64,000 nt of DNA from a candidate division WWE3 bacterium (GCA_030619715.1 JAUXAW010000002.1:1221-65220), one strand, 5' to 3'. Positions 1 to 29,193 are shown, counted from the stretch's first letter. A program made the numbers and translations. Notes: generated by a model from the letters alone, not told the origin.

Positions 1-736
1 TCAGCCCTGCCGAGTCTGGGCGAGGTAGGCGAACTTTTCTGCCCGGAGTGATGTTTCTCAAGGTAGTTACGTATTTAGTTTCCTTTTCGGTCGGGACCTT
101 GTAGGTCGGTTCCAGAGCAATATTTATCTCCGACGCCAGTTTGGGTACGGTGGGAAGCTCCTTGCGCTCGGGTAACTTCTCCTTCTTACTTTCAACCGGG
201 GGTTTGATTTCCGGCTCACGCGCGACCTCAATCCCCGGGGGGAGAGGAAGATCAAAGTTTAATTTTTCGATAAATTCTTGCTCGGCCAGCTCGCTTTTTG
301 GTATCTTTTCCTCAAAACCCTTAAGATACTGGAGCAGCTTGCGTCGGCTCTGGAGGGGTGTCAGCGAAAGAACTTGGGAGGTCAAAAACTGGGAGTAGTC
401 TTCACGGAGATACTCCGGCGGTAGCGGCTCCTTGCGCCAGACCCGTTGGGTCGGGGAGAAGATCGCCAGGATAAAATTGAAGAGCCACTGGTCGAGGGTG
501 CGGTCTTGAATCGGAAAAAAGGCCGTGCCCAATCCGAGGCCGGCGGCAAGAATAATGGTCGACCACTTGATAAGGAAGTTGAGGTCGGAAATCCAGGCGG
601 CGTAGGCGACGGCGATTCCGACGCCGGCAAACAAGAATTGCTTGATGGTCAAATCGCCGATCAGTTTGAACTCAAAGGCGGCGATGTGCTGGGGAACCGC
701 GTGTTGTTTGGACAGTTTCGGGGCTATCTCTGGCAT
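1..736 (-). CDS. PrgI/VirB3-like T4SS membrane protein; N-terminus at 736, gene continues beyond window start (partial)
   Basis: Minus-strand ORF from ATG at 736-734 with no stop inside the window, so it is absent from the ORF track. My translation is MPEIAPKLSKQHAVPQHIAAFEFKLIGDLTIKQFLFAGVGIAVAYAAWISDLNFLIKWSTIILAAGLGLGTAFFPIQDRTLDQWLFNF... This shows the PrgI-family pattern (VPQ.I..E.KLIG.LT.KQF followed by two TM helices), then a Lys/Glu/Pro-rich linker. It may continue into a VirB4-like ATPase outside the window. Confidence 0.5.
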   Translation of the reverse strand, partial: MPEIAPKLSKQHAVPQHIAAFEFKLIGDLTIKQFLFAGVGIAVAYAAWISDLNFLIKWSTIILAAGLGLGTAFFPIQDRTLDQWLFNFILAIFSPTQRVWRKEPLPPEYLREDYSQFLTSQVLSLTPLQSRRKLLQYLKGFEEKIPKSELAEQEFIEKLNFDLPLPPGIEVAREPEIKPPVESKKEKLPERKELPTVPKLASEINIALEPTYKVPTEKETKYVTTLRNITPGRKVRLPRPDSAGL

Positions 737-768
737 AGCTAATCTTAGTATACCAAACTTTAGATAGA

Positions 769-810
769 GATAAAGTAACTCAGTAATTCAGTAACATCAG
801 TAAAGACAAG
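769..810. repeat. S-type repeat (gtaactcagt...cagtaaagacaag); inverted copy of the gtctttactg repeats at 956-984 and 1339-1378, also at 60656-60694
   Basis: Direct reading of the sequence. agtaaagacaag at 798-810 is the reverse complement of cttgtctttact at 1337-1349. Confidence 0.5.
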
Positions 811-948
811 AAGAACCTGCTCGCTTCGCCAAGTCAGACTTGGCTTCGCTCGCAGAACCTTGCATTTGAGCAAAGCTCAAAAGTAGGCCTTCGGCTTTAG
901 ATCGCAGAACGATCGCCGCTTGCGGATTATTTAACGCGAAGCGCTATT
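811..948. repeat. about 130-nt repeated element (aagaacctgctcgc...cgcagaaccttgcatttgagca..agctcaaaagt...gcgctatt), second copy at 59927-60020; possible structured RNA
   Basis: Two copies with about 75% identity over shared blocks. Internal hairpins (gccaagtcagacttggc, gagcaaagctc). No ORF. Confidence 0.45.
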
Positions 949-981
949 GATTTATTGTCTTTACTGTCTTCACTGTCTTTA

Positions 982-1335
982 CTAATTCTTGAATTTGGAA
1001 ACGATAGAGGAGAAAATTTTGATCAACTCCGCACACTCTTTACCCAGCTTAATAATTTCATCTGACAACTGTGGATTATTTTTCAAAAGCAACTTGAGCC
1101 AGTATTTCGTCTCCCGAGCTTCCTTGAGGACAACACGAATTTTGTGAACAAAATCTTTACTACTTTCAGCTTCGCAAGCTTCGCGGTAGTTAGCTCCCAT
1201 TGATGTTCCCGAACGGAATGCCTGTCTTGAGATTTCTCGATTTACCAGATTTTTTGGGAGTTTATTGATTAGATTGATTAGATTCTCACTAAAATTCAGA
1301 GTCCTTCGGAGTAAATTCTCATTGTAATTTTTCAT
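982..1335 (-). CDS. four-helix-bundle protein (23S rRNA intervening-sequence protein family)
   Basis: 117-aa ORF. Signature FRSGTSMGANYREACEAESSKDFVHKIRVVLKEARETKYWLKLL is typical of the IVS 4HB family (PF05635-like). Paralog at 10260-10643. Flanked by gtctttactg repeats. Confidence 0.8.
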   Translation of the reverse strand: MKNYNENLLRRTLNFSENLINLINKLPKNLVNREISRQAFRSGTSMGANYREACEAESSKDFVHKIRVVLKEARETKYWLKLLLKNNPQLSDEIIKLGKECAELIKIFSSIVSKFKN

Positions 1336-1569
1336 TTTGTCTTTACTGTCTTTACTGATTTATTGTCTTTACTTTTGAAGGTATTCTACCACGCCATCGG
1401 GTTGAGTAAGGGTTTGGGGTTGACAAGGGACCTGTAATGTGGTATAGTAGTGGGATGGGATGGGGAGAGGTGGAGGGGCTTTTCCTACAAACTTCTCATC
1501 GAACTCTTATAAATCTGCTTTTCCCTCAGAAGCAAACAAAATATTACCACAAATAAAGGAGGTACGCAA

Positions 1570-3048
1570 ATGTACGAGTACGATTGGATGACACCCGAAT
1601 GGGTGTCGGAGGCGATCGTGGCGGAGAGGGCAGCAGCTGCGTTCATCACCGGCCGTCGGGGGACGAAGAAAACGGAGTTCATCATCGAGTATATCTCCGG
1701 TCCCCAAACAAAGAGCTGTCCAATTATCCTTGGTGGGCCCTTTAAGGGCCAGCGAGGGATGCGGGTCTTTATCGTTCCCAAGGGGGAAGATCCTCCGAAC
1801 GAGGCCGTCCTGTACGTCGAACTTGAGCCGGAGGAAATCGATCTGGCCCAAGTCAAGGACGTGCCGTTCGTCGTGATCCACCACGCGGCCGCGGTCTGGG
1901 CCTGTCCCGCGCTCGGTGCGGACAAGAAGTCCCTTGAGCTCGATACTCCAATTAGGAATAACGAGCTAACCCACAAGGACGCCGCAGAGTTCTACTCGGA
2001 GTTGGTGTGGGTTGGGCCATCGAATCCGAACGACCAGAAAGCCAGTGAGGAATTTGGCTGTAGACTGGTCTTTCTGGCCCTGGAGGGTATCCGCGGGGTC
2101 ATCGACCCGAAGAAGTTCGGCCCCGGAATATTCACCCCACTCCAGCGACCCGAGTATCGTCTGCGGGACACCCACTTCACCCACTGGATTTGGGAAATCC
2201 TGCAGCGGATTCGCACTGAGGGAATCCGGACCCGGGGGGCTTTCGCCGCCGACCGCGCGGGGAGTGACGAACTCTTTGGTATCAAAGCGGAATACGTCAA
2301 CTTCCTCCGTGCGAAAGCCGACGATGCTTATGAGCTCCAAAACCTGACACCCAATTGGGTGGATGGAGAGTTGACCCACAAGGATGTGAGGTCGGCGATC
2401 GATGACCAGGTTTGGCGCTTCCGGCCTGACCGGGACGTGATCATCCGGACGTGGCGCGAGCGAGCAGACGGATGTCTACTCGCCGGTCTGCGGGAAAAAA
2501 GGCGCCGTGGAGACCTGGATCTGGGTGACATCCATAAGGCCTTCAGCTCAGGTCGTCTGTTCCAGTGGATGGACGACGACGAGCGCGTTGAGCAGGAGAA
2601 CCAGCTCATCGAGTGGTGGTTCTGGGAGGTCTACATTCCGCGTCTGTATCGCCTTGCTACTTCCGGTGTCCGTGGGATCAACTACTCCGAAGTAGCCAAG
2701 CAGACGGTGAGCGGCCTCGGTGAGTGGGGTGGTTCTGCCCACGCAGATCTGATGACGGCTCGGGTCTTTGCAGTCGCCTACCTCTGCGAGCGGTTCGGTG
2801 AGATGGCCGCAGCTGCCCGACGGAAGGGTAGTGGGGTGCCGGACGAGGATATGAGGGATGAGGCCTTGAAGGCCTATCAAAAGGGTTCGGTCACTCCGCA
2901 AGAAGCTGCGGAGATGGATACGAGCAATACCCTCACCATTCCGGATGTCACTGCTGGTGCACGTAGCGAAAAAGATCTCTACGCCGAGTGGCTGAGAAAC
3001 TTCGAGTCCAAGCTGAAATGGATACTTGGGCCAGGGTTCACGCCTTAG
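1570..3048 (+). CDS. hypothetical protein, GC-rich (about 60%), with internal duplicated NNELTHKD/DGELTHKD segments
   Basis: 492-aa ORF with strong SD (aaaggaggtacgcaaATG). Codon usage and GC differ from flanking genes. No recognisable domain. Confidence 0.6.
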   Translation: MYEYDWMTPEWVSEAIVAERAAAAFITGRRGTKKTEFIIEYISGPQTKSCPIILGGPFKGQRGMRVFIVPKGEDPPNEAVLYVELEPEEIDLAQVKDVPFVVIHHAAAVWACPALGADKKSLELDTPIRNNELTHKDAAEFYSELVWVGPSNPNDQKASEEFGCRLVFLALEGIRGVIDPKKFGPGIFTPLQRPEYRLRDTHFTHWIWEILQRIRTEGIRTRGAFAADRAGSDELFGIKAEYVNFLRAKADDAYELQNLTPNWVDGELTHKDVRSAIDDQVWRFRPDRDVIIRTWRERADGCLLAGLREKRRRGDLDLGDIHKAFSSGRLFQWMDDDERVEQENQLIEWWFWEVYIPRLYRLATSGVRGINYSEVAKQTVSGLGEWGGSAHADLMTARVFAVAYLCERFGEMAAAARRKGSGVPDEDMRDEALKAYQKGSVTPQEAAEMDTSNTLTIPDVTAGARSEKDLYAEWLRNFESKLKWILGPGFTP

Positions 3049-3061
3049 GAGGAGGGAGAAA

Positions 3062-3712
3062 ATGCCAGAACCGTATGTTCCCAAACCGCGAAGACCTGTA
3101 CGTCAGAGAACGGCTGACAGCGCTATGCATTGGCTCGCTCGGTTATTCCGGGCCGACGTGGCCATTGGACCCCTGGAGAAGGGGTTCACCCTCGTCGTCT
3201 TCTTCCTTGCTGGATTGGTGGTTGGGGGAGCTCTTGGAGACATCCTTCCATTACCGTCACTCCTTTGCCGGCTGATAGGCGCTGGCATAGGTTTAGCGGT
3301 TGCCGGTCCTGCACGGAAACTCCCAATCCGCTGGGGGCAAGCGGGAGTAGTGGGGGCAACACTTCTTGCTATTCTCGTCTCCTGCGGTGCTGGTTCCGTA
3401 GGGCAGCTTGCTGCCCTGACCAAAGGAACGGTAACAGCTTACCGGCTGGAGAGTGGGGACAACACCATCCTCGCCACCGGACCCGCTCGGGGGTGCCAGA
3501 TAGCCATAAACGAGTTTAACCTTGGCCTCCTCTCCGAAGAAGAGATGAGGGAACAATGTGGTGACTCGTTAGCACCGGCGCAAGTAGAAGAAGGAGAAAA
3601 GACCGCCTTGCGGATACCCAAACCCAGTTTCCTTTTGTTCGTTTGGGCGGGTATCCAAATTCTGCTGGTGGCAGTGGTTTTGGTTTTCATCTTCAGAAAA
3701 CCGCCGCCCTAG
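3062..3712 (+). CDS. hypothetical polytopic membrane protein (GC-rich)
   Basis: ATG at 3062 preceded by ggaggagggag. Several hydrophobic helices. Starts 14 nt after the upstream stop, so likely co-transcribed. Confidence 0.5.
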   Translation: MPEPYVPKPRRPVRQRTADSAMHWLARLFRADVAIGPLEKGFTLVVFFLAGLVVGGALGDILPLPSLLCRLIGAGIGLAVAGPARKLPIRWGQAGVVGATLLAILVSCGAGSVGQLAALTKGTVTAYRLESGDNTILATGPARGCQIAINEFNLGLLSEEEMREQCGDSLAPAQVEEGEKTALRIPKPSFLLFVWAGIQILLVAVVLVFIFRKPPP

Positions 3713-3721
3713 CAGAAACAA

Positions 3722-3769
3722 GACCCTGAGGTTGATTTACATCAACAACCTCAGGGTCTGTTCTTTTTG
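3722..3769 (+). terminator. rho-independent terminator
   Basis: gaccctgaggttg...caacctcagggtc perfect stem followed by tgttcttttt. Confidence 0.65.
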
Positions 3770-3783
3770 TCAAGAAAAGGAGA

Positions 3784-5313
3784 TTATTTGATAACCTTTC
3801 CAATAACCGGCAGCTTGCCGAGGATCTTACCCGGCTCGAGGCCCGCCCTGGCAACCGCAGCGGGAGCGGTAACATCAAACGCATCGTCAAGCATTGCCGG
3901 CACGCGGGTCGCGGCCATAACCAAACCGAAGGCTACTAATCCTCCAACATTTGTACTTCCAAAAGGAGAAAAAACAGTTCCCCACCCCAAATCTTCGGGC
4001 ATCGGCATCGGGACGGTCATACTTTTCTCCGCAATATAAGTAGCGAAGTTTATTAGTAGATAGATCACCGGGAAGCACAAAACATTGACGGCGAAGCTCT
4101 TGAACCAACGGGTGGTGGTGTCCTCTTGGCCGGGGAGGGCCCCCCAAGCAAAAACGAAAGGAGCAAAAATGACCTGCATAAACAGTCCGGCGAAGCGGGT
4201 GATAAGAGTGAAAAAGAGCATAAAGGCGACGACGATGAGAATAACCCTCATACCTAAACCAATAATGTATGATGAAATTCCCGTACCCCCAAGATAAATG
4301 TTACTCCACCCAAAACCCCAACTCAAAGGGTCCCAGAATTTAATACCGGCAAACCGATCGAAAAGAGCGCCAATGATACGAAACGGTTCTATCATCGTCA
4401 TCGGCATTGGTGCTAGTATCGGTCCGAACTGAGAGTCAATCAGACCTTTGAGGACGCGGCCAAGGTCAACGATGATGCCAGCGATGGGATAGCTAAAGGT
4501 GATTAGAATCAAAGAGATGGCGATTCGAGGTAGAGCAGCGGTAACCGTCATCACTGTCCGAGGATCAATTTGGCTACGTATCATCACCATAAAACCCATT
4601 CCTACCAGAATGAGAACCATAAGAACATAACTGATATTACGCATTAGGCGCCAGATGCCGACGATTGACTTAAAGGTGTCACTTCCCGTTTGAGCATATG
4701 CCGGTGTACTGACGATGTTGTTGGCCAGCGCGTCTTTGATGAAAGAAGCGGTGTGAAGGTTGGGCGGGCTTTGCTCTAACATACCTACGGTCATCGATCC
4801 TATTTGTCCAGCAACACCTGAAGGAGGGAGGGCCTGCGGGCCGTTGGCGGTTTGTTTTATACATTTGCAGAAGTAATCCGCCCCCGTGTCTCCACCTCCG
4901 TAGACGGTCGCTGTGTAGCCTGGTGGACACTCGTCTACCTTAATCTCTCCAGTTTCTGGATCAGCTATACAGAGGTCGCCTCCTGTTTTGGCAACGGCGG
5001 TGTAGGCAACAAGAGTTCCCATATGACCCACATCCCCCAGCCACTTGAGCAACTGCTCACCCGTTAGCCCAAACTCCCTGTTTACGATCATCCCGAGAGT
5101 GTTTGTTATTATCCAGGGGAGTGTACCGGCCTGGGCGGTTTGGACCTCATATTTTTGACCCTCGTAGGGTGCGGTTTCGACTTTGTAATCATTGGGCGAG
5201 GCGTTGGGGAGAAGTTCGACGTCCTGGGCGAACACAAAAGACGCGAAAAACGGGGACGCCAAAAACGCAAAAGCGAGAAACGCTAAAAGGATTTTTTTGG
5301 ACAAGAGTCTCAT
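3784..5313 (-). CDS. secreted/polytopic membrane protein, VirB6/TrbL-like candidate (T4SS inner-membrane component)
   Basis: ATG at 5313. Signal peptide MRLLSKKILLAFLAFAFLASPFFASFVFA, about 200-aa Cys-containing periplasmic domain, then at least 6 TM helices. Assignment is by topology and context only. Confidence 0.45.
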   Translation of the reverse strand: MRLLSKKILLAFLAFAFLASPFFASFVFAQDVELLPNASPNDYKVETAPYEGQKYEVQTAQAGTLPWIITNTLGMIVNREFGLTGEQLLKWLGDVGHMGTLVAYTAVAKTGGDLCIADPETGEIKVDECPPGYTATVYGGGDTGADYFCKCIKQTANGPQALPPSGVAGQIGSMTVGMLEQSPPNLHTASFIKDALANNIVSTPAYAQTGSDTFKSIVGIWRLMRNISYVLMVLILVGMGFMVMIRSQIDPRTVMTVTAALPRIAISLILITFSYPIAGIIVDLGRVLKGLIDSQFGPILAPMPMTMIEPFRIIGALFDRFAGIKFWDPLSWGFGWSNIYLGGTGISSYIIGLGMRVILIVVAFMLFFTLITRFAGLFMQVIFAPFVFAWGALPGQEDTTTRWFKSFAVNVLCFPVIYLLINFATYIAEKSMTVPMPMPEDLGWGTVFSPFGSTNVGGLVAFGLVMAATRVPAMLDDAFDVTAPAAVARAGLEPGKILGKLPVIGKVIK

Positions 5314-5412
5314 CTTCGAAAAGATACTAACAAAGTTTCCTGCTTTTTGCAAGTATAACATCTCTGTTTGGCAATTGCAAGAGCAGGTGGGTTTTGTTAT
5401 TCTAAAACTGCT

Positions 5413-7314: not shown

Positions 7315-8312
7315 AGAAAACTAATTTAATTTTAACCGCTACTATTACGATAGGTGTCCTCCTTCTGCTCGGAGTCGGGATGGGGATTTGGTGGAAGAGA
7401 GCTCAGCCCCAACCTCAGCCCGAGACTTTGCCCCAACTTCCGCCTCTGGAAATTTCTCCCACAGTGCCGCAACCCTCGGCCCCGATCTATACGCTGGAGG
7501 TAGCGGCACCAAAGGTTGAAAAATTGCCGGTTTATCAATATTCCTTCGCTTCCACTCCAGCGTCTTGGGCGCGGAATTTAGGGTTTGCCGGTGAGCCGGA
7601 GGAAATTGAGGATGCTTTGCGGGGAACGCTTTATCTTTGGACAAAACTAGGTCGGACACTGATTGTGGACAAAAAGGCCTTAAGTTTGTCATACAGCGTG
7701 GATCTTTTGGCCGACCCGGAGACTTTGGCCGGTTCGTTTCTGCCGACCTTTGAGCCGGCGGCGGCGATCGTCGAGCGAACTTTGCTGGAGCTTGAGCCCG
7801 CCTCTGGCGGGTCACCTCTCTTAAAACTTGACCCTCAAAAGAGCAAAGCCCTGAAAGCCGGTGTCGCCCGGGTCCGGGAAGTCAGCTTTGAAGAGGCCGA
7901 CCTCGTTGAAATTCACTTCACCGCCAAAGTTGACGACTATCCTATTTATTTAGAATCGGGCCCCGACGGAGACCCGGCCGTCGCCTGGGTCGGCAAAGAC
8001 GCCAAACTCTTGCGTCTCGAATATACGCCGCTGGGAACAGTGGGAGAAAAGATTGGTGAATACCCCCTCTGGTCGGCCGAGGAGGTCCTAGCGATGTTGG
8101 AGCGTGGCGAAGGGGTGGTTGTTAGTTCAACGCTTGAGGGGGGTCAGACGATTGCTTCGGCCACGGTGACCCGAATCGCCGCCGGTTATCTCCTGCCGCC
8201 GCCGGACGCGACCGTAATTCAGCCGGTGTTCGTGGTCTCGGCCAAGGTGACAACCACCAGTGGAAAGACCGGAGAAATGACAATATACCTTCCGGCGATC
8301 AGGAGCGACTAA
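7311..8312 (+). CDS. membrane-anchored hypothetical protein (N-terminal TM, Pro/Gln-rich linker, extracytoplasmic domain)
   Basis: ATG at 7311 overlapping the upstream stop. One N-terminal TM (LILTATITIGVLLLLGVGMGIWW). Confidence 0.5.
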   Translation: MKKTNLILTATITIGVLLLLGVGMGIWWKRAQPQPQPETLPQLPPLEISPTVPQPSAPIYTLEVAAPKVEKLPVYQYSFASTPASWARNLGFAGEPEEIEDALRGTLYLWTKLGRTLIVDKKALSLSYSVDLLADPETLAGSFLPTFEPAAAIVERTLLELEPASGGSPLLKLDPQKSKALKAGVARVREVSFEEADLVEIHFTAKVDDYPIYLESGPDGDPAVAWVGKDAKLLRLEYTPLGTVGEKIGEYPLWSAEEVLAMLERGEGVVVSSTLEGGQTIASATVTRIAAGYLLPPPDATVIQPVFVVSAKVTTTSGKTGEMTIYLPAIRSD

Positions 8313-10237
8313 ATGCCGGCCGCGTCGAGATAGGCGAGGATGTACTGGGCGGTGCGGACGATACGGCTGACCCAGGAGTAGTGCCGATTCCAGCCGAGGA
8401 GAACACCGATTTTGGTAGCAAGGCTCGCATTTTCCCGCCAGCCGAGGCGGTGCAGTTCAGAGGCCATTGTCTGCATCGCCGTCGTTTTGTTCCAAAGGTC
8501 AAAAGAGGGATCGCTGACTTTGTGACGGTGGGGCCAGGCGGTTCCGATTAGGAATTGAGAACAACCCAGTGCCCCGGCGCTGCTGCCGAGGGCGGCGGTG
8601 TAGCTTTCGTTGACGTAATAGGCCGCCCGGGAATTAGCGACGCGGATGTCATACTCTTCCCAGTGCTCTAGAGCTTTTTTCAAGATGGTGATCTGGCTCG
8701 GCCAGCCTCGGTTGCGGTAGGCAGTTTCGGCGTCGGAACGACCGCAGTTGGTGCAGTTCGCCGATTCGCCGCTGGTCAGAGCAATAAGAATGCCGCGGTC
8801 GATGCTCCAGCCCCGTCTCGCCGCCCAGGCGGAAATGGATGAGGCGCGGGCAACCAATTCCAGGTCAAGCCCTAACTCCCGGGCCCGCTGAATCTCTTCG
8901 GGAGTCAGTTCGTAGTCAACCGGCTCGGAGGGCGGTTCGTAGGGCTCGGGCTCTTCTTCGGTTGGGGGAGGAACATAGGCCCAAGGAAGAGACAGCTTTT
9001 CTTGAATGGTGAAATCTCCGTAGGCTACCGTTCCCGTGTTCCAGACTTTAGCTTCTTCATCAACGTCAACACCCCATCCCCAGTCGGGAACAAGGGGAAG
9101 ATTCAAAGAGATTCTGATTTCAAAATCCCCCTCTGTTTCACCGTCAAATTCTTCATGGGTTTCCCCGGGAAGGTCAAAGATGGCAAAGGTTGACTCCACC
9201 GTCTGGCCAAAGATGTTTCTTAGGAAGGAGAAGCGGGGGTAAATTTTTATTCTTCCACCGAGGATGTCTTCTAGGGCCTGGCTAACGGAAATTCCTACCT
9301 CCTTTTTGACGACGCAGGCACTGTGCTTGGGTCCCGGTAAGATTTCGTGGCAGAGATCCCCTTCTTCCTCTGCGAGCACCACACCCTCTCCCCGGCCCGG
9401 AGACTTGGACAGCACATCGCCGAGACTGATAAGGACGGGGTGGCAGAGGTCTCCCTCTTCCTTGGTAAGTGAGGCCTGTGAGTTCTCTTGACCGGGGATT
9501 TTGGTCAGAGCATCGCTGAGAAAGTTGGTGGCGTAGTCAAATTCGTAGAGATGCTCGTCGGCTCCTACGATTCTCCCCGTTTCCTCTTCCATCCCTTCAA
9601 CTTCAATTTCCCACCGGCCCCATTCGTTGTAAACTCTTTCCCTCTCCGCCTCTTCCTGGATAAAGAGATAGTTTGGGGGCATCAGTTTTTTCATCACCCC
9701 GTCGTCGAAATCTTCGGCCGGGGTTCCAAAGTAGCGCTGCGTTAATCTTTTGATATGGGCGTGGGGGAGTTCGTCTCCCTTAAGTCTAACCGTCGCCGTC
9801 AGGAGCGCGTTCAACAGGGTGTCGATCCATCCGGGAACGGAGGAGGGGAGTTCAACCACGGCCAGGGGACAACAGCGGTCGGTGGGATAGTCGGGAAGGG
9901 GACACTCTTCGGGTGGAGGAAGGCCGCCGTCGCAGCAGGCGTTATTGCAGGTCTGCTCGCAACCAGAACCGTATACGCAGACATTGGCGTGGCAATATTT
10001 ACAAGGACCATAAGGCTTGGTGTGTTGGGGGTTGTCAAAGTCTCCCATATAGCATCCGCCGCAACCGGGATCGCCAACATCAATGTGAGCGGGGTTTGTG
10101 TTCTTCTTGCCCCAATCGCAGCAATTTCCTGTGTGGTCCTCTTCGATCGGGCCCGGGCACATCCCGACGGCCCGGGCGGGGGAAGAGAAAACAAAGAGCA
10201 AAAAGCAAAAAGCAAAGATCGTGAAAAGCCTTCTCAT
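8309..10237 (-). CDS. secreted Cys-rich protein with C-terminal lytic transglycosylase (SLT_2/MltB-like) domain; VirB1-like candidate
   Basis: Signal peptide. About 100-aa region with more than 25 Cys. Repeated EEGDLCH motifs. C-terminal ...LTSGESANCTNCGRSDAETAYRNRGW...GALGCSQFLIGTAW resembles the E..S/GAMGQ.QFmp motifs of MltB-type transglycosylases. Confidence 0.6.
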   Translation of the reverse strand: MRRLFTIFAFCFLLFVFSSPARAVGMCPGPIEEDHTGNCCDWGKKNTNPAHIDVGDPGCGGCYMGDFDNPQHTKPYGPCKYCHANVCVYGSGCEQTCNNACCDGGLPPPEECPLPDYPTDRCCPLAVVELPSSVPGWIDTLLNALLTATVRLKGDELPHAHIKRLTQRYFGTPAEDFDDGVMKKLMPPNYLFIQEEAERERVYNEWGRWEIEVEGMEEETGRIVGADEHLYEFDYATNFLSDALTKIPGQENSQASLTKEEGDLCHPVLISLGDVLSKSPGRGEGVVLAEEEGDLCHEILPGPKHSACVVKKEVGISVSQALEDILGGRIKIYPRFSFLRNIFGQTVESTFAIFDLPGETHEEFDGETEGDFEIRISLNLPLVPDWGWGVDVDEEAKVWNTGTVAYGDFTIQEKLSLPWAYVPPPTEEEPEPYEPPSEPVDYELTPEEIQRARELGLDLELVARASSISAWAARRGWSIDRGILIALTSGESANCTNCGRSDAETAYRNRGWPSQITILKKALEHWEEYDIRVANSRAAYYVNESYTAALGSSAGALGCSQFLIGTAWPHRHKVSDPSFDLWNKTTAMQTMASELHRLGWRENASLATKIGVLLGWNRHYSWVSRIVRTAQYILAYLDAAGI

Positions 10238-10240
10238 TTT

Positions 10241-10270
10241 AATTTCTAATATCTAATTTCTAATTCCTAA
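10241..10270. repeat. left inverted repeat flanking the second 4HB gene (ttctaat/ttcctaa units)
   Basis: aatttctaatatctaatttctaattcctaa pairs with ttagaaattaggaattaggtaattaga at 10648-10674. Confidence 0.55.
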
Positions 10271-10643
10271 CCTTTTTCTTTCGTGAATTTCTCACAATCG
10301 TGGTAAATACCAGATTCAACTCGTTCGCCTCTTGCCAAAGTTTCCTCGCTTCTTCTTTTAGTTCTGGTATCGCTTTTGCAATCATTCTAAGCCAATGTTT
10401 AGATTCTTTAGATTCCTTCTTGCAGATCCCCAATTTATGTTCAAAATCTTTCTTTGATTCAGCACAATCTGCCTCACAGTAATTAGAACCAACACTAGTC
10501 CCTGCTCTAACTAGTTGACTTATTAGTGGGATAGTGACAACGTTCTTAGGAACTTTCTTGGCAAATTCAATAATATCTTCACCAAACCTAGCCGTTCTTT
10601 CTTCTAAATCGAATTTCCTTTTAGAGCTTTTGTCATTTGGCAT
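10260..10643 (-). CDS. four-helix-bundle protein (IVS protein family), paralog of 982-1335
   Basis: 127 aa. LVRAGTSVGSNYCEADCAESKKDFEHKLGICKKESKESKHWL signature. Confidence 0.8.
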   Translation of the reverse strand: MPNDKSSKRKFDLEERTARFGEDIIEFAKKVPKNVVTIPLISQLVRAGTSVGSNYCEADCAESKKDFEHKLGICKKESKESKHWLRMIAKAIPELKEEARKLWQEANELNLVFTTIVRNSRKKKVRN

Positions 10644-10647
10644 TTCA

Positions 10648-10674
10648 TTAGAAATTAGGAATTAGGTAATTAGA
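10648..10674. repeat. right inverted repeat flanking the second 4HB gene
   Basis: Reverse complement matches the 10241-10270 repeat units. Confidence 0.55.
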
Positions 10675-10684
10675 CATTCGTTTC

Positions 10685-11056
10685 TCACTTCGATGGTTCG
10701 GGGATGGTGAAAACTGGGATATCAAACCCTGCTCCAAGCAAAGTTCCAAGAATGGCAATGATGGCGTAGGCGCCGAGGACGCCGATAAAGCCGAGGACGG
10801 CGTAAGTCAGACTGCTACGCGCGGCGGCGATGGCCTTCTCGTCTCCACCGGCGGCCATATAGCGAATGCCGGAGATTATCATCCAGATGATAAAAACCGC
10901 CCCGGCGGAGAGAATCAGAGCGTTGTAGACACGATTAAAAATACAAACCAGGGCCCGCAGCTCCAACTTATCCCACTTAATGTTCTCACAGTAGTCCGCC
11001 GGTAGGGGTTCCGGAGGCTCAAAGTTGGCGTAGGCTTTGGGGATGAAGTTGAACAT
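10685..11056 (-). CDS. T4SS-type pilin (TrbC/VirB2-like)
   Basis: 123 aa. C-terminal IIWMIISGIRYMAAGGDEKAIAAARSSLTYAVLGFIGVLGAYAII is typical of CPR T4SS pilins (two TM helices flanking a G-rich loop). Confidence 0.7.
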   Translation of the reverse strand: MFNFIPKAYANFEPPEPLPADYCENIKWDKLELRALVCIFNRVYNALILSAGAVFIIWMIISGIRYMAAGGDEKAIAAARSSLTYAVLGFIGVLGAYAIIAILGTLLGAGFDIPVFTIPEPSK

Positions 11057-11158
11057 AACAGTTTAATTTTCAAATCCCAAATCTCAAATCCCAACGAAGC
11101 TCCAAATTGAGCCATTGAGATTTCATTGAAAATTGGAGCTTGAAAATTGTAAATTTCG

Positions 11159-11290
11159 TCATGGTGCCGCTAGCACCGAGACGACAGTCTTGGCCAGGTC
11201 GTTGGGGAAAATCCAGTTGTTCAAAAGCGACACGACCACCAACCCCAACAACAACCCAACGATTTTGGCAATGTCCTCGTTATCGTTCAT
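11159..11290 (-). CDS. candidate 43-aa membrane peptide (MNDNEDIAKIVGLLLGLVVVSLLNNWIFPNDLAKTVVSVLAAP)
   Basis: Below the ORF-track size cutoff. ATG at 11290 with upstream GGGGGTGA SD-like sequence. One TM helix. Sits between two pilin genes. Confidence 0.3.
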   Translation of the reverse strand: MNDNEDIAKIVGLLLGLVVVSLLNNWIFPNDLAKTVVSVLAAP

Positions 11291-11352
11291 AATCACCAAT
11301 CACCCCCTGACGTCTACTTCGAGCGTGTGGCAGTAGAATACTTAATCCAACC

Positions 11353-11697
11353 TTAGAACGGTGGAACGACGTTTGTAGGCACATTTGGCCCCAAGAGTCT
11401 GCCCATGATGACTCTGATAGCGAATGCCCCAATGACCACAATAAACCCAATCACCGCGTTGGTGATCATGTTCCTCGCCGCCTCGGTCCCTTCCTTAGAT
11501 CCGCCCGAGGTGATGTAGCGAATACCACCAACGATCAGAAAGATTACTGTTAAAGCAATACCTACCCAGAAGACGAGATTCATTATCCACCCGAAAATAT
11601 TGGCTAGTGAACCAAATCTGTTCCCGAGCGGGTCTTCCATTACGTCGACATTAACCGCATTTTGCGCCCAAGCAGTCTTTATTAAACTGAAATTCAT
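11353..11697 (-). CDS. T4SS-type pilin (TrbC/VirB2-like)
   Basis: 114 aa. FLIVGGIRYITSGGSKEGTEAARNMITNAVIGFIVVIGAFAI pilin signature. Confidence 0.7.
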   Translation of the reverse strand: MNFSLIKTAWAQNAVNVDVMEDPLGNRFGSLANIFGWIMNLVFWVGIALTVIFLIVGGIRYITSGGSKEGTEAARNMITNAVIGFIVVIGAFAIRVIMGRLLGPNVPTNVVPPF

Positions 11698-11730
11698 CCT
11701 TACCTTTCACCCCCTTCCAGATGCGAATGC

Positions 11731-12414
11731 TTACTGACCCCAAATTGGGATGTTTAAGATACTGATTCCAATTATATTCAAAATCGCCACCGAAAGCAAA
11801 ATCAAAAGGAGGCCGGCGATGGCTGAGGTAATCGTTTCCCTGCCAGCCATCACCGCTTTGGGATCGCCGCTGGAGGTTAAGAGTCTAAACGCGCCGGAGA
11901 TAAGAAGAAGCATCGCAATCCCGCTGGCGACCCCAATCGCAATCTGGAGAATTTTTTCGACCAACGCCGTCGGCTCGGTGGGAATACAGCCGAGCCCGGT
12001 TTCGATGCAGCCGCCTGGGTCAGGTGGGGGTGGTGTGGGTGGTGTGACGCCAGTTATGGTGAATGCAGCGGGGTCACAGATATCGACCACCCCGATGCCG
12101 GAACAGTAAATCTTCGCTTCGTAAGTTCCATTGCCGAAAGGCCCCCAAACAGCATGGACTGACCCATTCACGTCTGGTGTTCCGTCATCTATCTCATAGA
12201 AGAGGATGCTAACATCCTTCCAAACCTTTAGGTCGAATTCGTCACGGTAGCCGACCGGGCAGGTAGTGTCAAAGGAATAATATTCCTCACCTGTTACTGT
12301 GGTAGATGTTCTTGTAGCTTCGACGGTACAAGTGGCCCAGGCGGGGGAAGTGGAAGCGACCAACCAGAGGCTGGCAAGGAGGATTGTGAGTTTTAGTTTA
12401 GTTGAAAGGTTCAT
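11731..12414 (-). CDS. pilin-like protein with extra N-terminal extracellular domain
   Basis: 227 aa. Signal peptide, Cys-containing beta-rich domain, Pro-rich linker. C-terminal AMLLLISGAFRLLTSSGDPKAVMAGRETITSAIAGLLLILLSVAIL matches the pilin fold of the two upstream genes. Confidence 0.55.
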   Translation of the reverse strand: MNLSTKLKLTILLASLWLVASTSPAWATCTVEATRTSTTVTGEEYYSFDTTCPVGYRDEFDLKVWKDVSILFYEIDDGTPDVNGSVHAVWGPFGNGTYEAKIYCSGIGVVDICDPAAFTITGVTPPTPPPPDPGGCIETGLGCIPTEPTALVEKILQIAIGVASGIAMLLLISGAFRLLTSSGDPKAVMAGRETITSAIAGLLLILLSVAILNIIGISILNIPIWGQ

Positions 12415-12431
12415 CGTGTATAATAAAACAA

Positions 12432-14189
12432 ATGGCTATGAAACGCTTTCTACCAATCCTGCTAATTCTATCCCTATTTTCGATTCCCGTCAACCTAGTT
12501 TCGGCGGAAGATGAATACGACAAACTGCAACAGGAAAAAGAGCAGAAGGTGCAGGAGAAAACTGGAAAAGAGCAGGAGAAGGTGCAAGCGGAGCAAGAGC
12601 AGCAAAGCATAGGAACGCAAATATCAAATACCAAATATCAAATATCAAATGTCGAGGGGCAATTGGCCCAAAAGAGGGCGGAGATTGCGATGCTTGGGCA
12701 GAGTCGGGACGATGCCGAGGAACAGAAGCAGGAGAAAATTGCCCAGCGAAACGGCTTGTGGCGGACGCTTTATAAACAGAGTCGAGCCAGTGCGCTGGAG
12801 CTTTTTTTGGGAGCTAATACTTTTGTGAAATTGGCCCAACTTTGGGGTTATTTTGATGCGTCGGTCCAGTTGAGCCGTCAGAATATTCAAACGCTGAATC
12901 TGCAGGTTAACAATTTGACCAAAAATCTTTTGAGTGCCAACCAGCGGCGCGAGCAGCTGGAGGGCGAGATCGCCGGGTTGGAGTCGCAAAAGGTTGGTTT
13001 GGAAATACGCCGCGGCCAGCTGACCGCTTACCAAAATGAGTTGCTGGGTCAAATCGCGGGACTGGAGGGAGAAATTAAGAATATCACCGCCCGGCAGGAG
13101 GAATTGATTCGGCAAAAACTGGCGGCAACGGCGCATTTTACCTCGGTTGGGGAAATCGAGCACGCCGTCGAGGCCCTACCCGACCCACCATTTTCGCCGG
13201 CCTTTGCCGTTTTTTCTTTTGGTTATCCCCACCGGGTCGGGATGAATCAGTACGGCGCTTACGGACGAAGTAAAGCTGGTCAGTCGTACAGTGAGATTCT
13301 TAATACCTACTATAAAGATGTCGAAATCATTGAGTACAATGTTCCCGCAAAAATTAGGGTTGACGGCTACGGCGAGATTGATTTTGAGGGGAATTATCTC
13401 AAAGGCATTGCCGAGATGCCTTCGTCTTGGGGGGATAAGGGTGGAACGGAAGCGCTCAAAGCCCAGGCGATTGCCGCCCGGACCTATGCTCTGGCGGTAA
13501 CTAATAATGGTCAAACTTCAATTTGCGCAACTCAAGCCTGCCAAGTTTACCGTCCATCAAAAGCAGTTTACAGTGAGCGATCAGCGAACTGGCATCGGGC
13601 AGTCGAAGAAACTCGAGGCAAGGTGATTGTTCACGGCGGCGCGCCGATTAAGGCCTGGTATTCGTCAACCGATGGGGGCTACACTAGATTGCCGACCGAT
13701 TTCGATGTTGGGTGGAATTCTTCGCCGCCGTATACTCATCGGGTTAAGGATTTGGACGGTGAGGGGCGGGCCTACGACGGGCCAGGACACGGCGATTCGC
13801 CCTGGTTTCATAAGGCCTGGTACGATACAGCGACCGACAGGCATCCCTGGCTGACGAAAGAAGAACTGATAGATCTTTTTAACGCCACACTTTTGCCGGA
13901 GTCGTATAATGAGCATCTGTCTCAAGAAGTTCCGGTCATTTCCACCGAGCCGGGGTGGAGCAAGGAGGAGGTGCGTGAAGCCCTGCGCAACGAAGGCATT
14001 GAACCGATTGAAGATTTTTCCGAGGTTAAAGTCGCTCACTCCGACGAGGGTTACACGTTTTTGATTCGGGTTTCCACTCCCTCTGGTACACGAGATATTG
14101 ATGGCCGTAGATTTCGCCAAATCTTCGTCCTCCGCTCCCGCGGCCGTTTAGCGTTATGGAGCTCACTTTATGAAATTGTTCAGCGTTGA
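12432..14189 (+). CDS. SpoIID/LytB-domain protein (peptidoglycan-remodelling) with signal peptide and coiled-coil
   Basis: ATG at 12432 (MAMKRFLPILL...). Q/E/K-rich coiled-coil. SpoIID motifs GMNQYGAYG...AQAIAARTYAL...WYSSTDGGYT. Confidence 0.75.
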   Translation: MAMKRFLPILLILSLFSIPVNLVSAEDEYDKLQQEKEQKVQEKTGKEQEKVQAEQEQQSIGTQISNTKYQISNVEGQLAQKRAEIAMLGQSRDDAEEQKQEKIAQRNGLWRTLYKQSRASALELFLGANTFVKLAQLWGYFDASVQLSRQNIQTLNLQVNNLTKNLLSANQRREQLEGEIAGLESQKVGLEIRRGQLTAYQNELLGQIAGLEGEIKNITARQEELIRQKLAATAHFTSVGEIEHAVEALPDPPFSPAFAVFSFGYPHRVGMNQYGAYGRSKAGQSYSEILNTYYKDVEIIEYNVPAKIRVDGYGEIDFEGNYLKGIAEMPSSWGDKGGTEALKAQAIAARTYALAVTNNGQTSICATQACQVYRPSKAVYSERSANWHRAVEETRGKVIVHGGAPIKAWYSSTDGGYTRLPTDFDVGWNSSPPYTHRVKDLDGEGRAYDGPGHGDSPWFHKAWYDTATDRHPWLTKEELIDLFNATLLPESYNEHLSQEVPVISTEPGWSKEEVREALRNEGIEPIEDFSEVKVAHSDEGYTFLIRVSTPSGTRDIDGRRFRQIFVLRSRGRLALWSSLYEIVQR

Positions 14190-29190: not shown

Positions 29191-29193
29191 GCA

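What the first reader, a model, noticed from the sequence alone, without database searches (positions are those of the whole stretch)
1..14189. T4SS/pilus-like envelope cluster combining PrgI-like, VirB6-like, three VirB2-type pilins and three different peptidoglycan-remodelling enzymes
The region contains a PrgI-family gene running off the window edge, a VirB6-like polytopic protein, three tandem pilin genes (one with an added N-terminal domain) plus a 43-aa membrane peptide between them, an M23 peptidase, and a secreted protein joining a domain with more than 25 Cys to an MltB-type lytic transglycosylase. A SpoIID-domain protein, a GC-rich two-gene insert (1570-3712) and two GT-C-like membrane proteins lie adjacent. 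No VirB4, VirD4 or VirB11 ATPase is present in the window; these are presumably upstream. A secretion or pilus apparatus carrying its own three cell-wall hydrolases could be used to breach a host envelope by an episymbiont.
Basis: partly seen in the sequence, partly recalled or inferred. Interest (0 to 1): 0.6.

Follow-up and report, generated by a model that had tools for sequence, protein, structure and literature searches.

The report
Patescibacterial type IV secretion envelope gene cluster
This is the cell-envelope half of the chromosomal, pilus-bearing type IV secretion system already described in ultra-small Patescibacteria (CPR); the kind is known, but this lineage's copy contains a previously unannotated VirB6-like protein family and surface-exposed domains that differ sharply between near-identical genomes.

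Summary
HMMs support PrgI, three T4SS pilins, an M23 peptidase and SpoIID. Support for the MltB-type transglycosylase is only borderline. The polytopic 'VirB6-like' protein has no Pfam assignment. It does get weak hits to five conjugative membrane-protein families, R388 VirB6 as the top fold match, and conserved linkage to pilin arrays.

No ATPase lies in the window. In the closest relatives, PrgI is followed directly by a TrsD/TraC-like gene and VirB4, so VirB4 most likely lies just beyond position 1. No VirD4, VirB11 or relaxase was found.

Corrections:
- The Cys-rich protein has 22 Cys, not more than 25.
- The 'GC-rich two-gene insert' is a conserved, fast-evolving gene pair found beside the VirB6-like gene in four other loci.
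- The GT-C assignment has no HMM support, and those genes are absent from the closest relative.

The cluster matches the published Patescibacteria T4SS (Wang 2023; Quiñonero-Coronel 2025), so it is a new member of a known kind.

New details:
- A candidate for the VirB6 reported as scarce in Microgenomatia.
- Domain-level mosaic hypervariability in the exposed parts.
- A conserved 43-aa peptide within the pilin array.
- An M23-coupled protein whose model resembles YycH/YycI.

Function (host interaction rather than conjugation) is inferred.

The parts
2..736 (-). N-terminal 245 aa of a VirB3-like PrgI-family protein. The gene continues beyond window position 1. Full-length orthologues are 373-450 aa and carry a C-terminal CarboxypepD_reg beta-sandwich domain.
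   Evidence: Pfam PrgI 1.9e-7, 31.9 bits against cut-off 27. Orthologues carry PrgI+PF13620. In relatives the gene is followed by TrsD/TraC-like and VirB4.
982..1335 (-). 23S_rRNA_IVP (four-helix-bundle) gene. It is a small intruding cassette flanked by TGTCTTTAC-type simple repeats and is not part of the machine.
   Evidence: Pfam 1.7e-16. GC 0.37. Absent at this position in L005 and L006. Repeats shown.
1420..1551 (+). Promoter-like site (TTGACA-17-TATAGT with an extended -10, at 1420-1448) plus a conserved leader of about 100 nt upstream of the variable gene pair.
   Evidence: Promoter scan 11/12. About 80% DNA identity to L006 and L005 although the downstream CDS differs. No significant RNA fold.
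1570..3048 (+). 492-aa soluble protein with no TM segment and no signal peptide. It belongs to a rare, fast-evolving family and is the first gene of a conserved pair convergent with the VirB6-like gene.
   Evidence: No Pfam, NCBIfam, PHROG or PDB hit. Only 13 relatives among 1.84 billion representatives. Syntenic homologues in L018 (40%), L020 (28%) and L015 (28%).
3062..3712 (+). 216-aa membrane protein with about 4 TM segments; second gene of the conserved pair.
   Evidence: Hydropathy. Homologues in L018 (42%), L020 (37%) and L015 (33%). The module is fused to the C-terminus of the L005 slot protein.
3784..5313 (-). VirB6-like polytopic membrane protein (ORF runs to 5361; likely start M17). 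It has a signal/anchor helix, a variable extracytoplasmic domain of about 190 aa, and a conserved core of 5-6 TM helices.
   Evidence: 344 homologues, none with a Pfam domain. NCBIfam sub-threshold hits to five conjugative TM families across the family. AF2 pLDDT 78.6. Foldseek PDB top hits are TrwI/VirB6 of R388, prob 0.92-0.98, E 0.08-0.2. Always linked to pilin arrays and M23.
5413..7314 (+). Membrane-anchored M23 (LytM-type) peptidoglycan endopeptidase, the VirB1-type wall-opening candidate. Layout: variable N-terminal ~270 aa, TM region, DUF11-like beta-sandwich, M23 domain.
   Evidence: Pfam M23 1.9e-17, DUF11 7.6e-4. NCBIfam and PHROG M23 hits. HxxxD and HxH present in the sequence. Syntenic in six loci.
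7311..8312 (+). 333-aa bitopic protein: N-terminal TM, Pro-rich linker, two alpha/beta domains. It overlaps the M23 stop codon and is always paired with M23.
   Evidence: 33 homologues, no Pfam domain. AF2 pLDDT 72.7. Foldseek top hits YycH/YycI, E 5e-4 to 5e-3, low TM-scores, no VirB8/TcpC hit. No PDB sequence hit.
8309..10237 (-). Secreted 642-aa protein: signal peptide, Cys-rich module (15 Cys in residues 27-123), variable acidic middle, and a C-terminal MltB/SLT_2-like lytic transglycosylase domain (about 441-642).
   Evidence: SLT_2 21.1 bits on the full protein and 24.4 bits on the isolated domain against cut-off 24.3. TIGR02282 1.3e-3. Cys count. The LT domain is 90-95% identical to L006 while residues 1-440 are 12-57% identical. 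The proteins at the same position in L012 and L015 gave no SLT_2 or other Pfam hit; the L012 and L009 proteins match only the middle of this protein, and the L015 one has no BLAST match to it.
10260..10643 (-). Second 23S_rRNA_IVP four-helix-bundle gene, bracketed by an inverted TAATTTCTAAT-type repeat. It is an intruding cassette.
   Evidence: Pfam 8.7e-15. GC 0.37. Flanks shown. Absent in L006.
10685..11056 (-). VirB2-type pilin A (123 aa).
   Evidence: PF18895 25.7 bits, just under the 26.6 cut-off. NCBIfam Mbov_0395 pilin-like 3.5e-4. Aligns with 14 other array pilins.
11159..11290 (-). Conserved 43-aa single-TM peptide inside the pilin array.
   Evidence: 86% identical in L006 and 78% in L012, more conserved than the neighbouring pilins. 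Called as a gene in L006.
11353..11697 (-). VirB2-type pilin B (114 aa).
   Evidence: PF18895 1.4e-7, 31.9 bits.
11731..12414 (-). Pilin C (227 aa) with a variable ~130-aa N-terminal Cys-containing domain and a Pro-rich linker before the pilin core. A promoter-like site lies at 12493-12465.
   Evidence: PF18895 1.3e-6, 28.8 bits. Core 85-92% and N-domain 20-35% identical to L006. Promoter scan 10/12.
12432..14189 (+). SpoIID-domain protein with an N-terminal anchor and coiled coil, divergent from the pilin operon. It is a syntenic neighbour but evolves like the housekeeping flanks.
   Evidence: Pfam SpoIID 9.3e-17. PDB SpoIID 4e-13. Adjacent to the pilin array in L006, L012 and L015. 93% identical to L006.

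Best explanation
Window 1-14189 is the envelope module of a chromosomal Patescibacteria-type T4SS. This type descends from the monoderm MPF-FATA conjugation machinery and has acquired a VirB2-like pilin array. The organism is a CPR bacterium, probably of class Microgenomatia.

**Shown**
- The gene content, and its conservation as a block in relatives: SpoIID | pilins + 43-aa peptide + secreted Cys-rich/LT protein | M23 + 333-aa partner | VirB6-like | 492-aa + 216-aa pair | PrgI.
- In relatives, PrgI leads directly into TrsD-like and VirB4.
- No coupling protein, relaxase or VirB11 was seen nearby.

**Inferred mechanism**
- PrgI(VirB3)-TrsD-VirB4 forms the membrane ATPase platform.
- The VirB6-like protein forms the membrane channel and pilus-assembly base.
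- The membrane-anchored M23 endopeptidase, and in this lineage the secreted transglycosylase, open the cell's own peptidoglycan.
- The Sec-exported pilins polymerise into a surface filament. The pilin with an extra N-terminal domain is a candidate minor or tip subunit.
- The apparatus is used to contact a host cell and to export protein or another substrate, rather than for conjugation. The homologous Saccharibacteria system is essential for epibiotic growth.
- Exposed non-catalytic domains differ strongly between near-identical genomes, and their similarity pattern is discordant with the flanks. These are therefore probably strain- or host-specificity determinants maintained by recombination and/or diversifying selection.
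For: **HMM assignments**
- PrgI, three T4SS pilins, M23, SpoIID and borderline SLT_2.

**VirB6-like assignment**
- Family members hit ICE_Mbov_0396_TM (8 of 70), MMCAP2_0566 (3), CD3337/EF1877 (2), Bacteroides TraJ (1) and pLS20_p028 (1). All are conjugative polytopic proteins.
- The top four Foldseek PDB hits are R388 TrwI/VirB6.

**Synteny**
- The block recurs in L005, L006, L012, L015, L018, L020 and, more distantly, L016.
- PrgI -> TraC-like -> VirB4 is seen in L002, L003, L005, L006 and L016.

**No conjugation or mobility genes**
- No Walker-A ATPase other than an ABC ATPase in the window, and no RT.
- The flanks are housekeeping genes: SmpB, ComF-like, DnaG, RpoD.

**Literature**
- The same component set is described for Patescibacteria: TrsD, VirB3/PrgI, VirB4, VirB6, VirB2 arrays of 2-11 pilins abundant in Microgenomatia, M23-bearing VirB1 substitutes, no relaxase, and a coupling protein that is distant or absent (PMC12102498).
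- The system is essential in Southlakia epibionticum (PMC10633639; PMC12857230).

**Hypervariability, window against L006**
- Flanks: PrgI 91%, SpoIID 93%, the 641-aa protein 96%, SmpB 96%.
- Envelope parts: VirB6-like 51%, M23 33%, Cys/LT 54%, pilins 60-76%.
- Sharp domain boundaries within single genes.
- Discordance: the window's VirB6-like and M23 proteins are closer to L018, L005 and L020 than to L006.
Against: - VirB4 itself is not in the window. The record beyond position 1 could not be fetched, so its presence in this genome is inferred from synteny.
- The VirB6 assignment is sub-threshold by every sequence method. Pfam TrbL matched 1 of 70 members at E 0.008, there was no PDB profile hit, and Foldseek E was 0.08-0.2.
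- No VirB8-like component was found.
- The LT domain is borderline and was not detected at that position in L012 or L015.
- No experiment exists for any Microgenomatia T4SS. The substrate and the role in host interaction are extrapolated from Saccharibacteria.
- The hypervariability rests mainly on one close genome pair from metagenome assemblies.
Confidence: 0.85

Rival explanations
1. A conjugative T4SS belonging to an integrative conjugative element or plasmid remnant, which transfers DNA to other cells.
For: The VirB4 lineage derives from monoderm conjugation systems (PMC12102498). The polytopic protein and the pilins weakly match Mycoplasma, Firmicutes and Bacteroides ICE families. Mosaic allele exchange is seen across genomes.
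Against: No relaxase, coupling protein, integrase or oriT-like feature was found in the window or in any fetched flank. The cluster sits in conserved chromosomal synteny with SpoIID, SmpB and ComF-like genes at 93-96% identity. Published surveys find relaxases in only 103 Patescibacteria genomes, rarely near virB4.
Confidence: 0.04
2. A ComB-like DNA-uptake T4SS. This would be a VirB2/3/4/6 machine without a coupling protein or relaxase that imports environmental or host DNA, working with ComF/ComEC.
For: The component set (VirB2, B3, B4, B6, with no VirD4 or VirB11) resembles Helicobacter ComB (own knowledge). A ComF-like gene (double zinc ribbon + phosphoribosyltransferase, 20712-21482) lies 8 kb away and is syntenic in L006. 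In class ABY1, T4SS loci co-localise with comF, recG and radA.
Against: In Saccharibacteria, transformation depends on type IV pili and ComEC. The T4SS remains essential when comEC is deleted. The ComF-like gene here is separated from the cluster by unrelated genes. No ComEC or DprA is linked.
Confidence: 0.07
3. Not one machine. On this view it is a conserved neighbourhood of cell-wall remodelling genes (M23, LT, SpoIID) and small secreted membrane proteins that happen to lie next to PrgI/VirB4.
For: The envelope block occurs without adjacent PrgI/VirB4 in L015, L018 and L020. PrgI/VirB4 occurs without the block in L002 and L003. SpoIID evolves like a housekeeping gene. The VirB6 and LT calls are sub-threshold.
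Against: Pilins pass the T4SS_pilin threshold. The polytopic protein's only fold and family affinities are to conjugative VirB6-type proteins. It is linked to pilin arrays even in a lineage with 30% identity, where PrgI-TrsD-VirB4 lies 7 kb away. Dispersed T4SS genes are documented for Patescibacteria, notably Microgenomatia.
Confidence: 0.04

Closest known systems
Patescibacteria-clade T4SS (Southlakia epibionticum SEML1_0006-0019; survey of Quiñonero-Coronel et al. 2025)
   Same: - Chromosomal location.
- Component set of VirB3/PrgI + TrsD-like + VirB4 + VirB6-like + tandem divergent VirB2-like pilins.
- M23 or lysozyme-type hydrolases in place of a classical VirB1.
- No linked relaxase or coupling protein.
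- Pilin arrays sometimes interrupted by a non-pilin gene.
   Different: - This is probably a Microgenomatia-type locus, in which the VirB6-like protein escapes the standard VirB6 and PrgH profiles.
- PrgI is fused to a CarboxypepD_reg domain.
- There is an extra conserved 492-aa + 216-aa pair, an M23 partner whose model resembles YycH/YycI, a 43-aa peptide, and in this lineage a Cys-rich secreted LT.
- The envelope block and the ATPase block are separable in related genomes.
Gram-positive conjugative T4SS (MPF-FATA), e.g. pCF10 Prg/Pcf and pIP501 Tra
   Same: - PrgI/VirB3-like and VirB4-like proteins, and a VirB6-like polytopic protein.
- A membrane-anchored multi-domain wall hydrolase. PrgK carries LytM + SLT + CHAP and TraG carries SLT + CHAP (own knowledge).
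- No outer-membrane core.
   Different: - No coupling protein (PcfC), relaxase or adhesin.
- No VirB8-like PrgL or TraM was detected.
- VirB2-type pilins are present, which Gram-positive systems lack.
- The hydrolase activities are split over separate genes.
Mycoplasma ICE pilin-like / TM protein pair (NCBIfam Mbov_0395 / Mbov_0396, MMCAP2_0565 / 0566)
   Same: The window's pilins weakly match the pilin-like family. The polytopic family weakly matches the adjacent TM family. It is the same two-gene logic in another wall-less or monoderm lineage.
   Different: All hits are far below the curated cut-offs (17-22 bits for the window's own proteins, against 40 for the pilin-like family and 90 for MMCAP2_0566). 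There is no ICE context here.
Helicobacter pylori ComB DNA-uptake T4SS
   Same: A VirB2/3/4/6-centred system that lacks VirD4, VirB11 and a relaxase (own knowledge).
   Different: ComB has outer-membrane VirB7-10 components. There is no evidence here for DNA uptake, and Saccharibacteria data argue against it.

Membership tests
Patescibacteria-clade T4SS | VirB4 ATPase of the Patescibacteria clade in or near the cluster | not testable with these tools
   The window ends inside PrgI, and the source record beyond position 1 could not be fetched. In orthologous loci L005 and L006 (PrgI 66% and 91% identical), VirB4 (AAA_10/P-loop_TraG) follows PrgI and TraC-like directly. No phylogeny was done.
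Patescibacteria-clade T4SS | VirB3/PrgI homologue | tested here: met
   Pfam PF12666 31.9 bits against cut-off 27.
Patescibacteria-clade T4SS | TrsD/TraC-like protein (related to the VirB4 N-terminus) beside VirB4 | not testable with these tools
   It lies outside the window. It is present (PF26593 TraC-like) directly after PrgI in L002, L003, L005 and L006, at 75-84% mutual identity.
Patescibacteria-clade T4SS | Array of divergent VirB2-like pilins | tested here: met
   Three pilins match PF18895, two above the cut-off and one 0.9 bit below. Mutual identity is 26-36%.
Patescibacteria-clade T4SS | No linked relaxase or coupling protein | tested here: met
   No such ORF or Walker-A protein in the 64 kb window. 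None in the flanks of L002, L005, L015, L018 or L020.
VirB6/TrbL (PF04610) or PrgH-type VirB6 | Significant match to a VirB6/TrbL/PrgH profile | tested here: not met
   The window protein gives no TrbL hit. Only 1 of 70 family members hits, at E 0.008. The profile against PDB sequences finds nothing.
VirB6/TrbL (PF04610) or PrgH-type VirB6 | VirB6-like fold: helical polytopic core comparable to TrwI | tested here: inconclusive
   AF2 pLDDT 78.6. Foldseek PDB ranks 1-4 and 6 are R388 TrwI/VirB6 (prob 0.69-0.98, target-normalised TM-score 0.34-0.49), but E is 0.08-0.23.
VirB6/TrbL (PF04610) or PrgH-type VirB6 | Genomic linkage to other T4SS genes | tested here: met
   Adjacent to pilin arrays, M23 and/or PrgI-VirB4 in the window and in L005, L006, L015, L016, L018 and L020.
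VirB8-like (PrgL/TraM/TcpC, NTF2-like) | Bitopic protein with an NTF2-like extracytoplasmic domain | tested here: not met
Lytic transglycosylase family 3 (SLT_2/MltB) | Pfam SLT_2 match above threshold that includes the catalytic Glu region | tested here: inconclusive
   21.1 bits on the full protein and 24.4 bits on the isolated domain against cut-off 24.3. Only profile positions 146-214 of 292 are covered. A GES motif upstream and GALGCSQF are read from the sequence. No PDB sequence hit.
Peptidase M23 (LytM) | M23 domain with HxxxD and HxH zinc ligands | tested here: met
   PF01551 63.7 bits against cut-off 28.7. HKIID and HVH are present in the translated sequence.
GT-C glycosyltransferases (14170-17089) | Match to any GT-C family profile | tested here: not met
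   No Pfam or PHROG hit, even at E up to 5 in Pfam; NCBIfam was not run on these two proteins. Only the polytopic topology is consistent. Structure was not predicted.
Diversity-generating retroelement (considered because IVP/Avd-like genes are present) | Reverse transcriptase plus a TR/VR repeat pair | tested here: not met
   No YxDD-containing ORF and no TR/VR-like repeat in the 64 kb window.

The most novel reading that the evidence does not exclude
The envelope block may be a modular host-specificity cassette exchanged by recombination among co-occurring strains.
- Its exposed domains are swapped while the catalytic and TM cores and the ATPase module stay conserved. The swapped domains are the VirB6-like ectodomain, the M23 N-terminal and beta-sandwich parts, the Cys-rich and middle part of the LT protein, and the pilin N-domain.
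- The unannotated 492-aa soluble + 216-aa membrane pair beside VirB6 may be a lineage-specific substrate, or a substrate-recruiting adaptor that stands in for the missing coupling protein.
- The ~350-member polytopic family would then be the 'missing' VirB6 of Microgenomatia.
Probability: 0.25. Interest if true: 0.6.

Novelty: new member of a known kind. Interest (0 to 1): 0.35.

Why it matters
T4SSs with pili are the only envelope machines shown to be essential for the epibiotic life of Patescibacteria. What they transport is not known.

For class Microgenomatia, the published survey could barely find VirB6 and found VirB3 often unlinked from VirB4. This locus and its relatives contribute the following:
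- A concrete candidate VirB6 family (about 344 members, none annotated).
- A conserved envelope gene block with four uncharacterised partners.
- A clear pattern in which exposed domains diverge or are exchanged while the motor stays conserved.

These give testable targets for host-range determinants and for the unknown substrate. The kind of system itself is already published.

Tried and rejected
1. **Fetching sequence beyond position 1.** The exact-match contig found (Logan SRR14872668_89887) covers only window 792-11092. The 69-kb NCBI record was not returned.
2. **Genome-contig scans.** Scans with the VirB6-like protein and with the 333-aa family found nothing, so there is no named organism. 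Accession searches in papers found nothing relevant. Class Microgenomatia is inferred only from named distant homologues: Roizman-, Gottesman- and Levybacteria.
4. **Pilin-like hairpin inside the VirB6-like protein.** Pfam TrbC hit 5 of 70 members, but hhalign against the pilin profile gave probability 0.7%, so the hits are spurious TM similarity.
5. **DGR hypothesis raised by the two IVP/Avd-like genes.** No RT and no TR/VR pair were found.
6. **Structured leader RNA upstream of the 492-aa gene.** The sequence is conserved but the fold z-score is -0.6 and there is no covariation. Rfam finds only tRNAs in the window.
7. **Function of the 492-aa family.** Pfam, NCBIfam, PHROGs and a PDB profile search found nothing, and there are no invariant motifs.
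8. **Pilin profile against PDB.** No significant hit.

Full report
**1. What is in the sequence**

ORF listing and translation give the following gene order.

| Window coordinates | Strand | Product |
|---|---|---|
| 2-736 | - | PrgI-like; 245 aa in the window, continues past position 1 |
| 982-1335 | - | 23S_rRNA_IVP four-helix-bundle gene |
| 1570-3048 | + | 492-aa soluble protein |
| 3062-3712 | + | 216-aa membrane protein |
| 3784-5361 | - | Polytopic protein; likely start M17 at 5313 |
| 5413-7314 | + | M23 peptidase |
| 7311-8312 | + | 333-aa bitopic protein |
| 8309-10237 | - | 642-aa secreted Cys-rich protein |
| 10260-10643 | - | Second IVP gene |
| 10685-11056 | - | Pilin A |
| 11159-11290 | - | 43-aa TM peptide |
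| 11353-11697 | - | Pilin B |
| 11731-12414 | - | Pilin C with an N-terminal extra domain |
| about 12432-14189 | + | SpoIID protein |
| 14170-17089 | + | Two polytopic membrane proteins |

The rest of the window (20-64 kb) is housekeeping: SmpB, a ComF-like gene, tRNAs, DnaG, RpoD and metabolic genes. Outside the ABC ATPase at 44939-45787 there is no Walker-A protein. There is also no reverse transcriptase.

**2.

- PrgI: PF12666, 31.9 bits against cut-off 27.
- Pilins: PF18895 at 25.7, 31.9 and 28.8 bits against cut-off 26.6. NCBIfam adds weak hits to the Mycoplasma ICE pilin-like family Mbov_0395.
- M23: 63.7 bits, with HxxxD and HxH readable in the sequence.
- SpoIID: 61.9 bits, plus PDB SpoIID hits.
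- Transglycosylase: borderline. SLT_2 scores 21.1 bits on the whole protein and 24.4 bits on the isolated C-terminal domain, against cut-off 24.3. Only profile positions 146-214 are covered. GES and GALGCSQF motifs are visible.
- The Cys-rich protein has 22 Cys, 15 of them in mature residues 27-123. It does not have more than 25.
- The two polytopic proteins at 14170-17089 gave no Pfam or PHROG match (NCBIfam was not run on them). They are replaced by other genes in the closest relative. The GT-C label is unsupported, and they are not part of the cluster.

**3. The VirB6-like protein**

- Pfam gives only a weak TrbC hit. NCBIfam gives a weak MMCAP2_0566 conjugal-transfer hit.
- The protein has 344 homologues. 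None carries a precomputed Pfam domain. The few that are named come from Gottesman- and Levybacteria or from 'Patescibacteria group'.
- Seventy members were scanned individually:
  - One hits TrbL at E 0.008.
  - Fifteen hits fall on five different conjugative polytopic families: ICE_Mbov_0396_TM 8, MMCAP2_0566 3, CD3337/EF1877 2, Bacteroides TraJ 1 and pLS20_p028 1.
- An AlphaFold model built on the 70-sequence alignment has pLDDT 78.6.
- In a Foldseek search of the PDB, ranks 1-4 and 6 are TrwI/VirB6 of the R388 T4SS. Probabilities are 0.69-0.98 and target-normalised TM-scores 0.34-0.49, but E is only 0.08-0.23.
- The TrbC hits are spurious: the pilin profile against this family gives hhalign probability 0.7%.
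- Together with the synteny below, VirB6-like is the best reading, but formal membership of PF04610 is not met.
- This matters because the published survey states that VirB6 homologues are scarce in Microgenomatia, 'suggesting extreme sequence divergence'.

**4. Where the ATPases are**

- The only exact-match contig returned, from Logan, covers window 792-11092.
- Homologues of the PrgI fragment are 373-450 aa and carry PrgI + CarboxypepD_reg.
- PrgI is followed directly by a 225-aa TraC-like (TrsD-type) gene and a VirB4 (AAA_10/P-loop_TraG/DUF87) in four loci:

| Locus | Source | PrgI identity to window |
|---|---|---|
| L006 | GCA_030602025.1 | 91% |
| L005 | JGI metagenome 3300005098 | 66% |
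| L002 | GCA_964531895.1 | 79% |
| L003 | ENA metagenome assembly ERZ24794679 | 75% |

- The truncated ORF at the end of the L006 contig is the VirB4 N-terminus, 80% identical to the L005 protein.
- VirB4 therefore very probably lies within about 2 kb beyond window position 1. This is an inference from synteny.
- No VirD4, VirB11 or relaxase appears in any flank.

**5. Conservation of the block**

- L005, L006, L012, L015, L018 and L020 share all or part of this order: SpoIID | pilins (+ peptide) -> large secreted protein | 333-aa <- M23 | VirB6-like | 216-aa <- 492-aa.
- PrgI-TrsD-VirB4 is adjacent in the window, L005 and L006. It lies 7 kb away in the distant L016.
- It is elsewhere in L015, L018 and L020. 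L002 and L003 carry the ATPase module without the block.
- The envelope and ATPase modules are therefore separable, as reported for Microgenomatia.
  - Homologous pairs sit at the same position in L018 (40% and 42% identity), L020 (28% and 37%) and L015 (28% and 33%).
  - In L005 the membrane module is fused to a different soluble domain.
  - Its GC (0.57-0.59) barely exceeds that of other cluster genes (0.50-0.56). The truly foreign-looking genes are the two IVP genes at 0.37.
- The 492-aa family is rare: 13 relatives among 1.84 billion representatives. It has no detectable domain or invariant motif.

**6. The 333-aa partner of M23**

- It overlaps the M23 stop codon and always accompanies M23.
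- Its model (pLDDT 72.7) matches the bitopic WalK regulators YycH and YycI best. E is 5e-4 to 5e-3 and probabilities are 0.77-1.0, but TM-scores are low.
- No VirB8, TcpC or PrgL appears among the top 50 hits.
- I therefore do not call it VirB8-like. A role in positioning or regulating the hydrolase is speculation.

**7. Evolutionary pattern**

This is the most interesting result of the analysis. Amino-acid identity between the window and L006:

| Protein | Identity | Group |
|---|---|---|
| PrgI N-terminus | 91% | Flank |
| SpoIID | 93% | Flank |
| 641-aa protein | 96% | Flank |
| SmpB | 96% | Flank |
| VirB6-like | 51% | Envelope |
| M23 | 33% | Envelope |
| 333-aa protein | 70% | Envelope |
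| Cys/LT protein | 54% | Envelope |
| Pilins | 60-76% | Envelope |
| 43-aa peptide | 86% | Envelope |

- The divergence is domain-wise:

| Protein | Conserved part | Variable part |
|---|---|---|
| Cys/LT protein | LT domain, residues 441-642: 90-95% (DNA 91.7%) | Residues 1-440: 12-57% |
| Pilin C | Pilin core: 85-92% | N-terminal domain: 20-35% |
| VirB6-like | TM core: 55-75% | Ectodomain: 15-27% |

- Similarity is discordant with the flanks. The window's VirB6-like and M23 proteins are closer to L018, L005 and L020 (51-67%) than to L006 (33-51%). PrgI shows the opposite pattern.
- Among the same relatives, VirB4 (82-90%) and TrsD (75-84%) are well conserved.
- Both allele types occur as exact contigs in sequencing runs with neighbouring accession numbers, SRR14872668 and SRR14872666.
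- I read this as recombinational exchange and/or diversifying selection on exposed, non-catalytic domains. That fits a host-contact function. It rests on few genomes.

**8. Comparison with what is known**

- The component set matches the Patescibacteria T4SS:
  - A VirB4 clade derived from monoderm MPF-FATA conjugation systems, with TrsD, PrgI/VirB3 and VirB6.
  - VirB2-like arrays of 2-11 divergent pilins, abundant in Microgenomatia and Saccharimonadia and sometimes interrupted by a non-pilin gene.
  - M23-type hydrolases in place of VirB1.
  - No relaxase, and a coupling protein that is distant or absent.
- In Southlakia epibionticum the T4SS and its pilin array are essential for epibiotic growth. 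This is independent of ComEC, and the substrate is unknown.
- The finding is therefore a new member of a known kind.
- Rivals are less likely, for the reasons given with each. They are a conjugative element, a ComB-like DNA-uptake system, and a mere neighbourhood of wall enzymes.

**9. Verdict**

- The interpretation as a T4SS/pilus envelope cluster with an upstream ATPase is supported for VirB4 only.
- The 'host-envelope breaching' role of the hydrolases is untested.
- Interest is moderate to low as a discovery (0.35). It is useful as annotation of a divergent VirB6 family and as a lead on host-specificity hypervariability.

Noticed in passing
window 946-990, 1335-1376, 769-809, 60652-60694; 10240-10272 and 10644-10675: Each of the two 23S_rRNA_IVP (four-helix-bundle) genes is bracketed by its own short simple repeats. 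These are TGTCTTTAC-type units around 982-1335 and an inverted TAATTTCTAAT-type repeat around 10260-10643. A solo copy of the first motif lies at about 60.65 kb. The genes have GC 0.37 and are absent at these positions in L005 and L006. IVP genes also intrude at other points of the cluster in L009 and L020, and a HEPN pair does so in L018. They look like small mobile cassettes that colonise the cluster's intergenic regions.
   Followed up: partly
window 1420-1551; L006 2403-2568; L005 4722-4822: A strong promoter-like site (TTGACA-17-TGTGGTATAGT) and a leader of about 100 nt are roughly 80% conserved upstream of the gene next to PrgI. This holds even though the downstream coding sequences in L005 and L006 are unrelated to the window's 492-aa gene. 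L006 carries an extra hairpin insertion. No significant RNA structure or covariation was found.
   Followed up: partly
window 2-736 and orthologues (L006 965-2317): The PrgI/VirB3-like protein of this lineage is fused, through a long charged Pro/Glu/Lys linker, to a C-terminal CarboxypepD_reg beta-sandwich domain. The 2025 survey text does not mention this architecture.
   Followed up: partly
window 14170-18091: Two polytopic membrane proteins and a 316-aa membrane protein lie between SpoIID and the conserved 641-aa protein. In L006 they are replaced by a 189-aa protein plus DUF5657. L012 keeps the second one at 70% identity. This is a variable islet with no family assignment.
   Followed up: partly
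window 29130-29211, 33292-33373, 34475-34556; 32274-32471, 36447-36501, 37656-37738, 39384-39466: Families of 55-83-nt intergenic direct repeats (68-96% identity) recur upstream of several metabolic genes between 29 and 39.5 kb. One family starts at the 3' end of a tRNA. They may be shared promoter/terminator blocks or footprints of gene-cassette insertion.
   Followed up: no
window 55719-58411: An AmmeMemoRadiSam-type pair (a Memo/AMMECR1 fusion and a radical-SAM partner) is recognisable by eye in the translations. It was not tested with HMMs.
   Followed up: no
window 20712-21482: A ComF-like gene (double zinc ribbon + phosphoribosyltransferase) lies about 8 kb from the pilin array and is syntenic in L006. 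This is relevant to the DNA-uptake rival but is not linked tightly enough to support it.
   Followed up: partly
L002 about 11990-12090: The apparent split of VirB4 in GCA_964531895.1 (a 579-aa product lacking the N-terminus and the Walker A motif) coincides with a run of N in the record. It is an assembly gap, not a biological split.
   Followed up: yes
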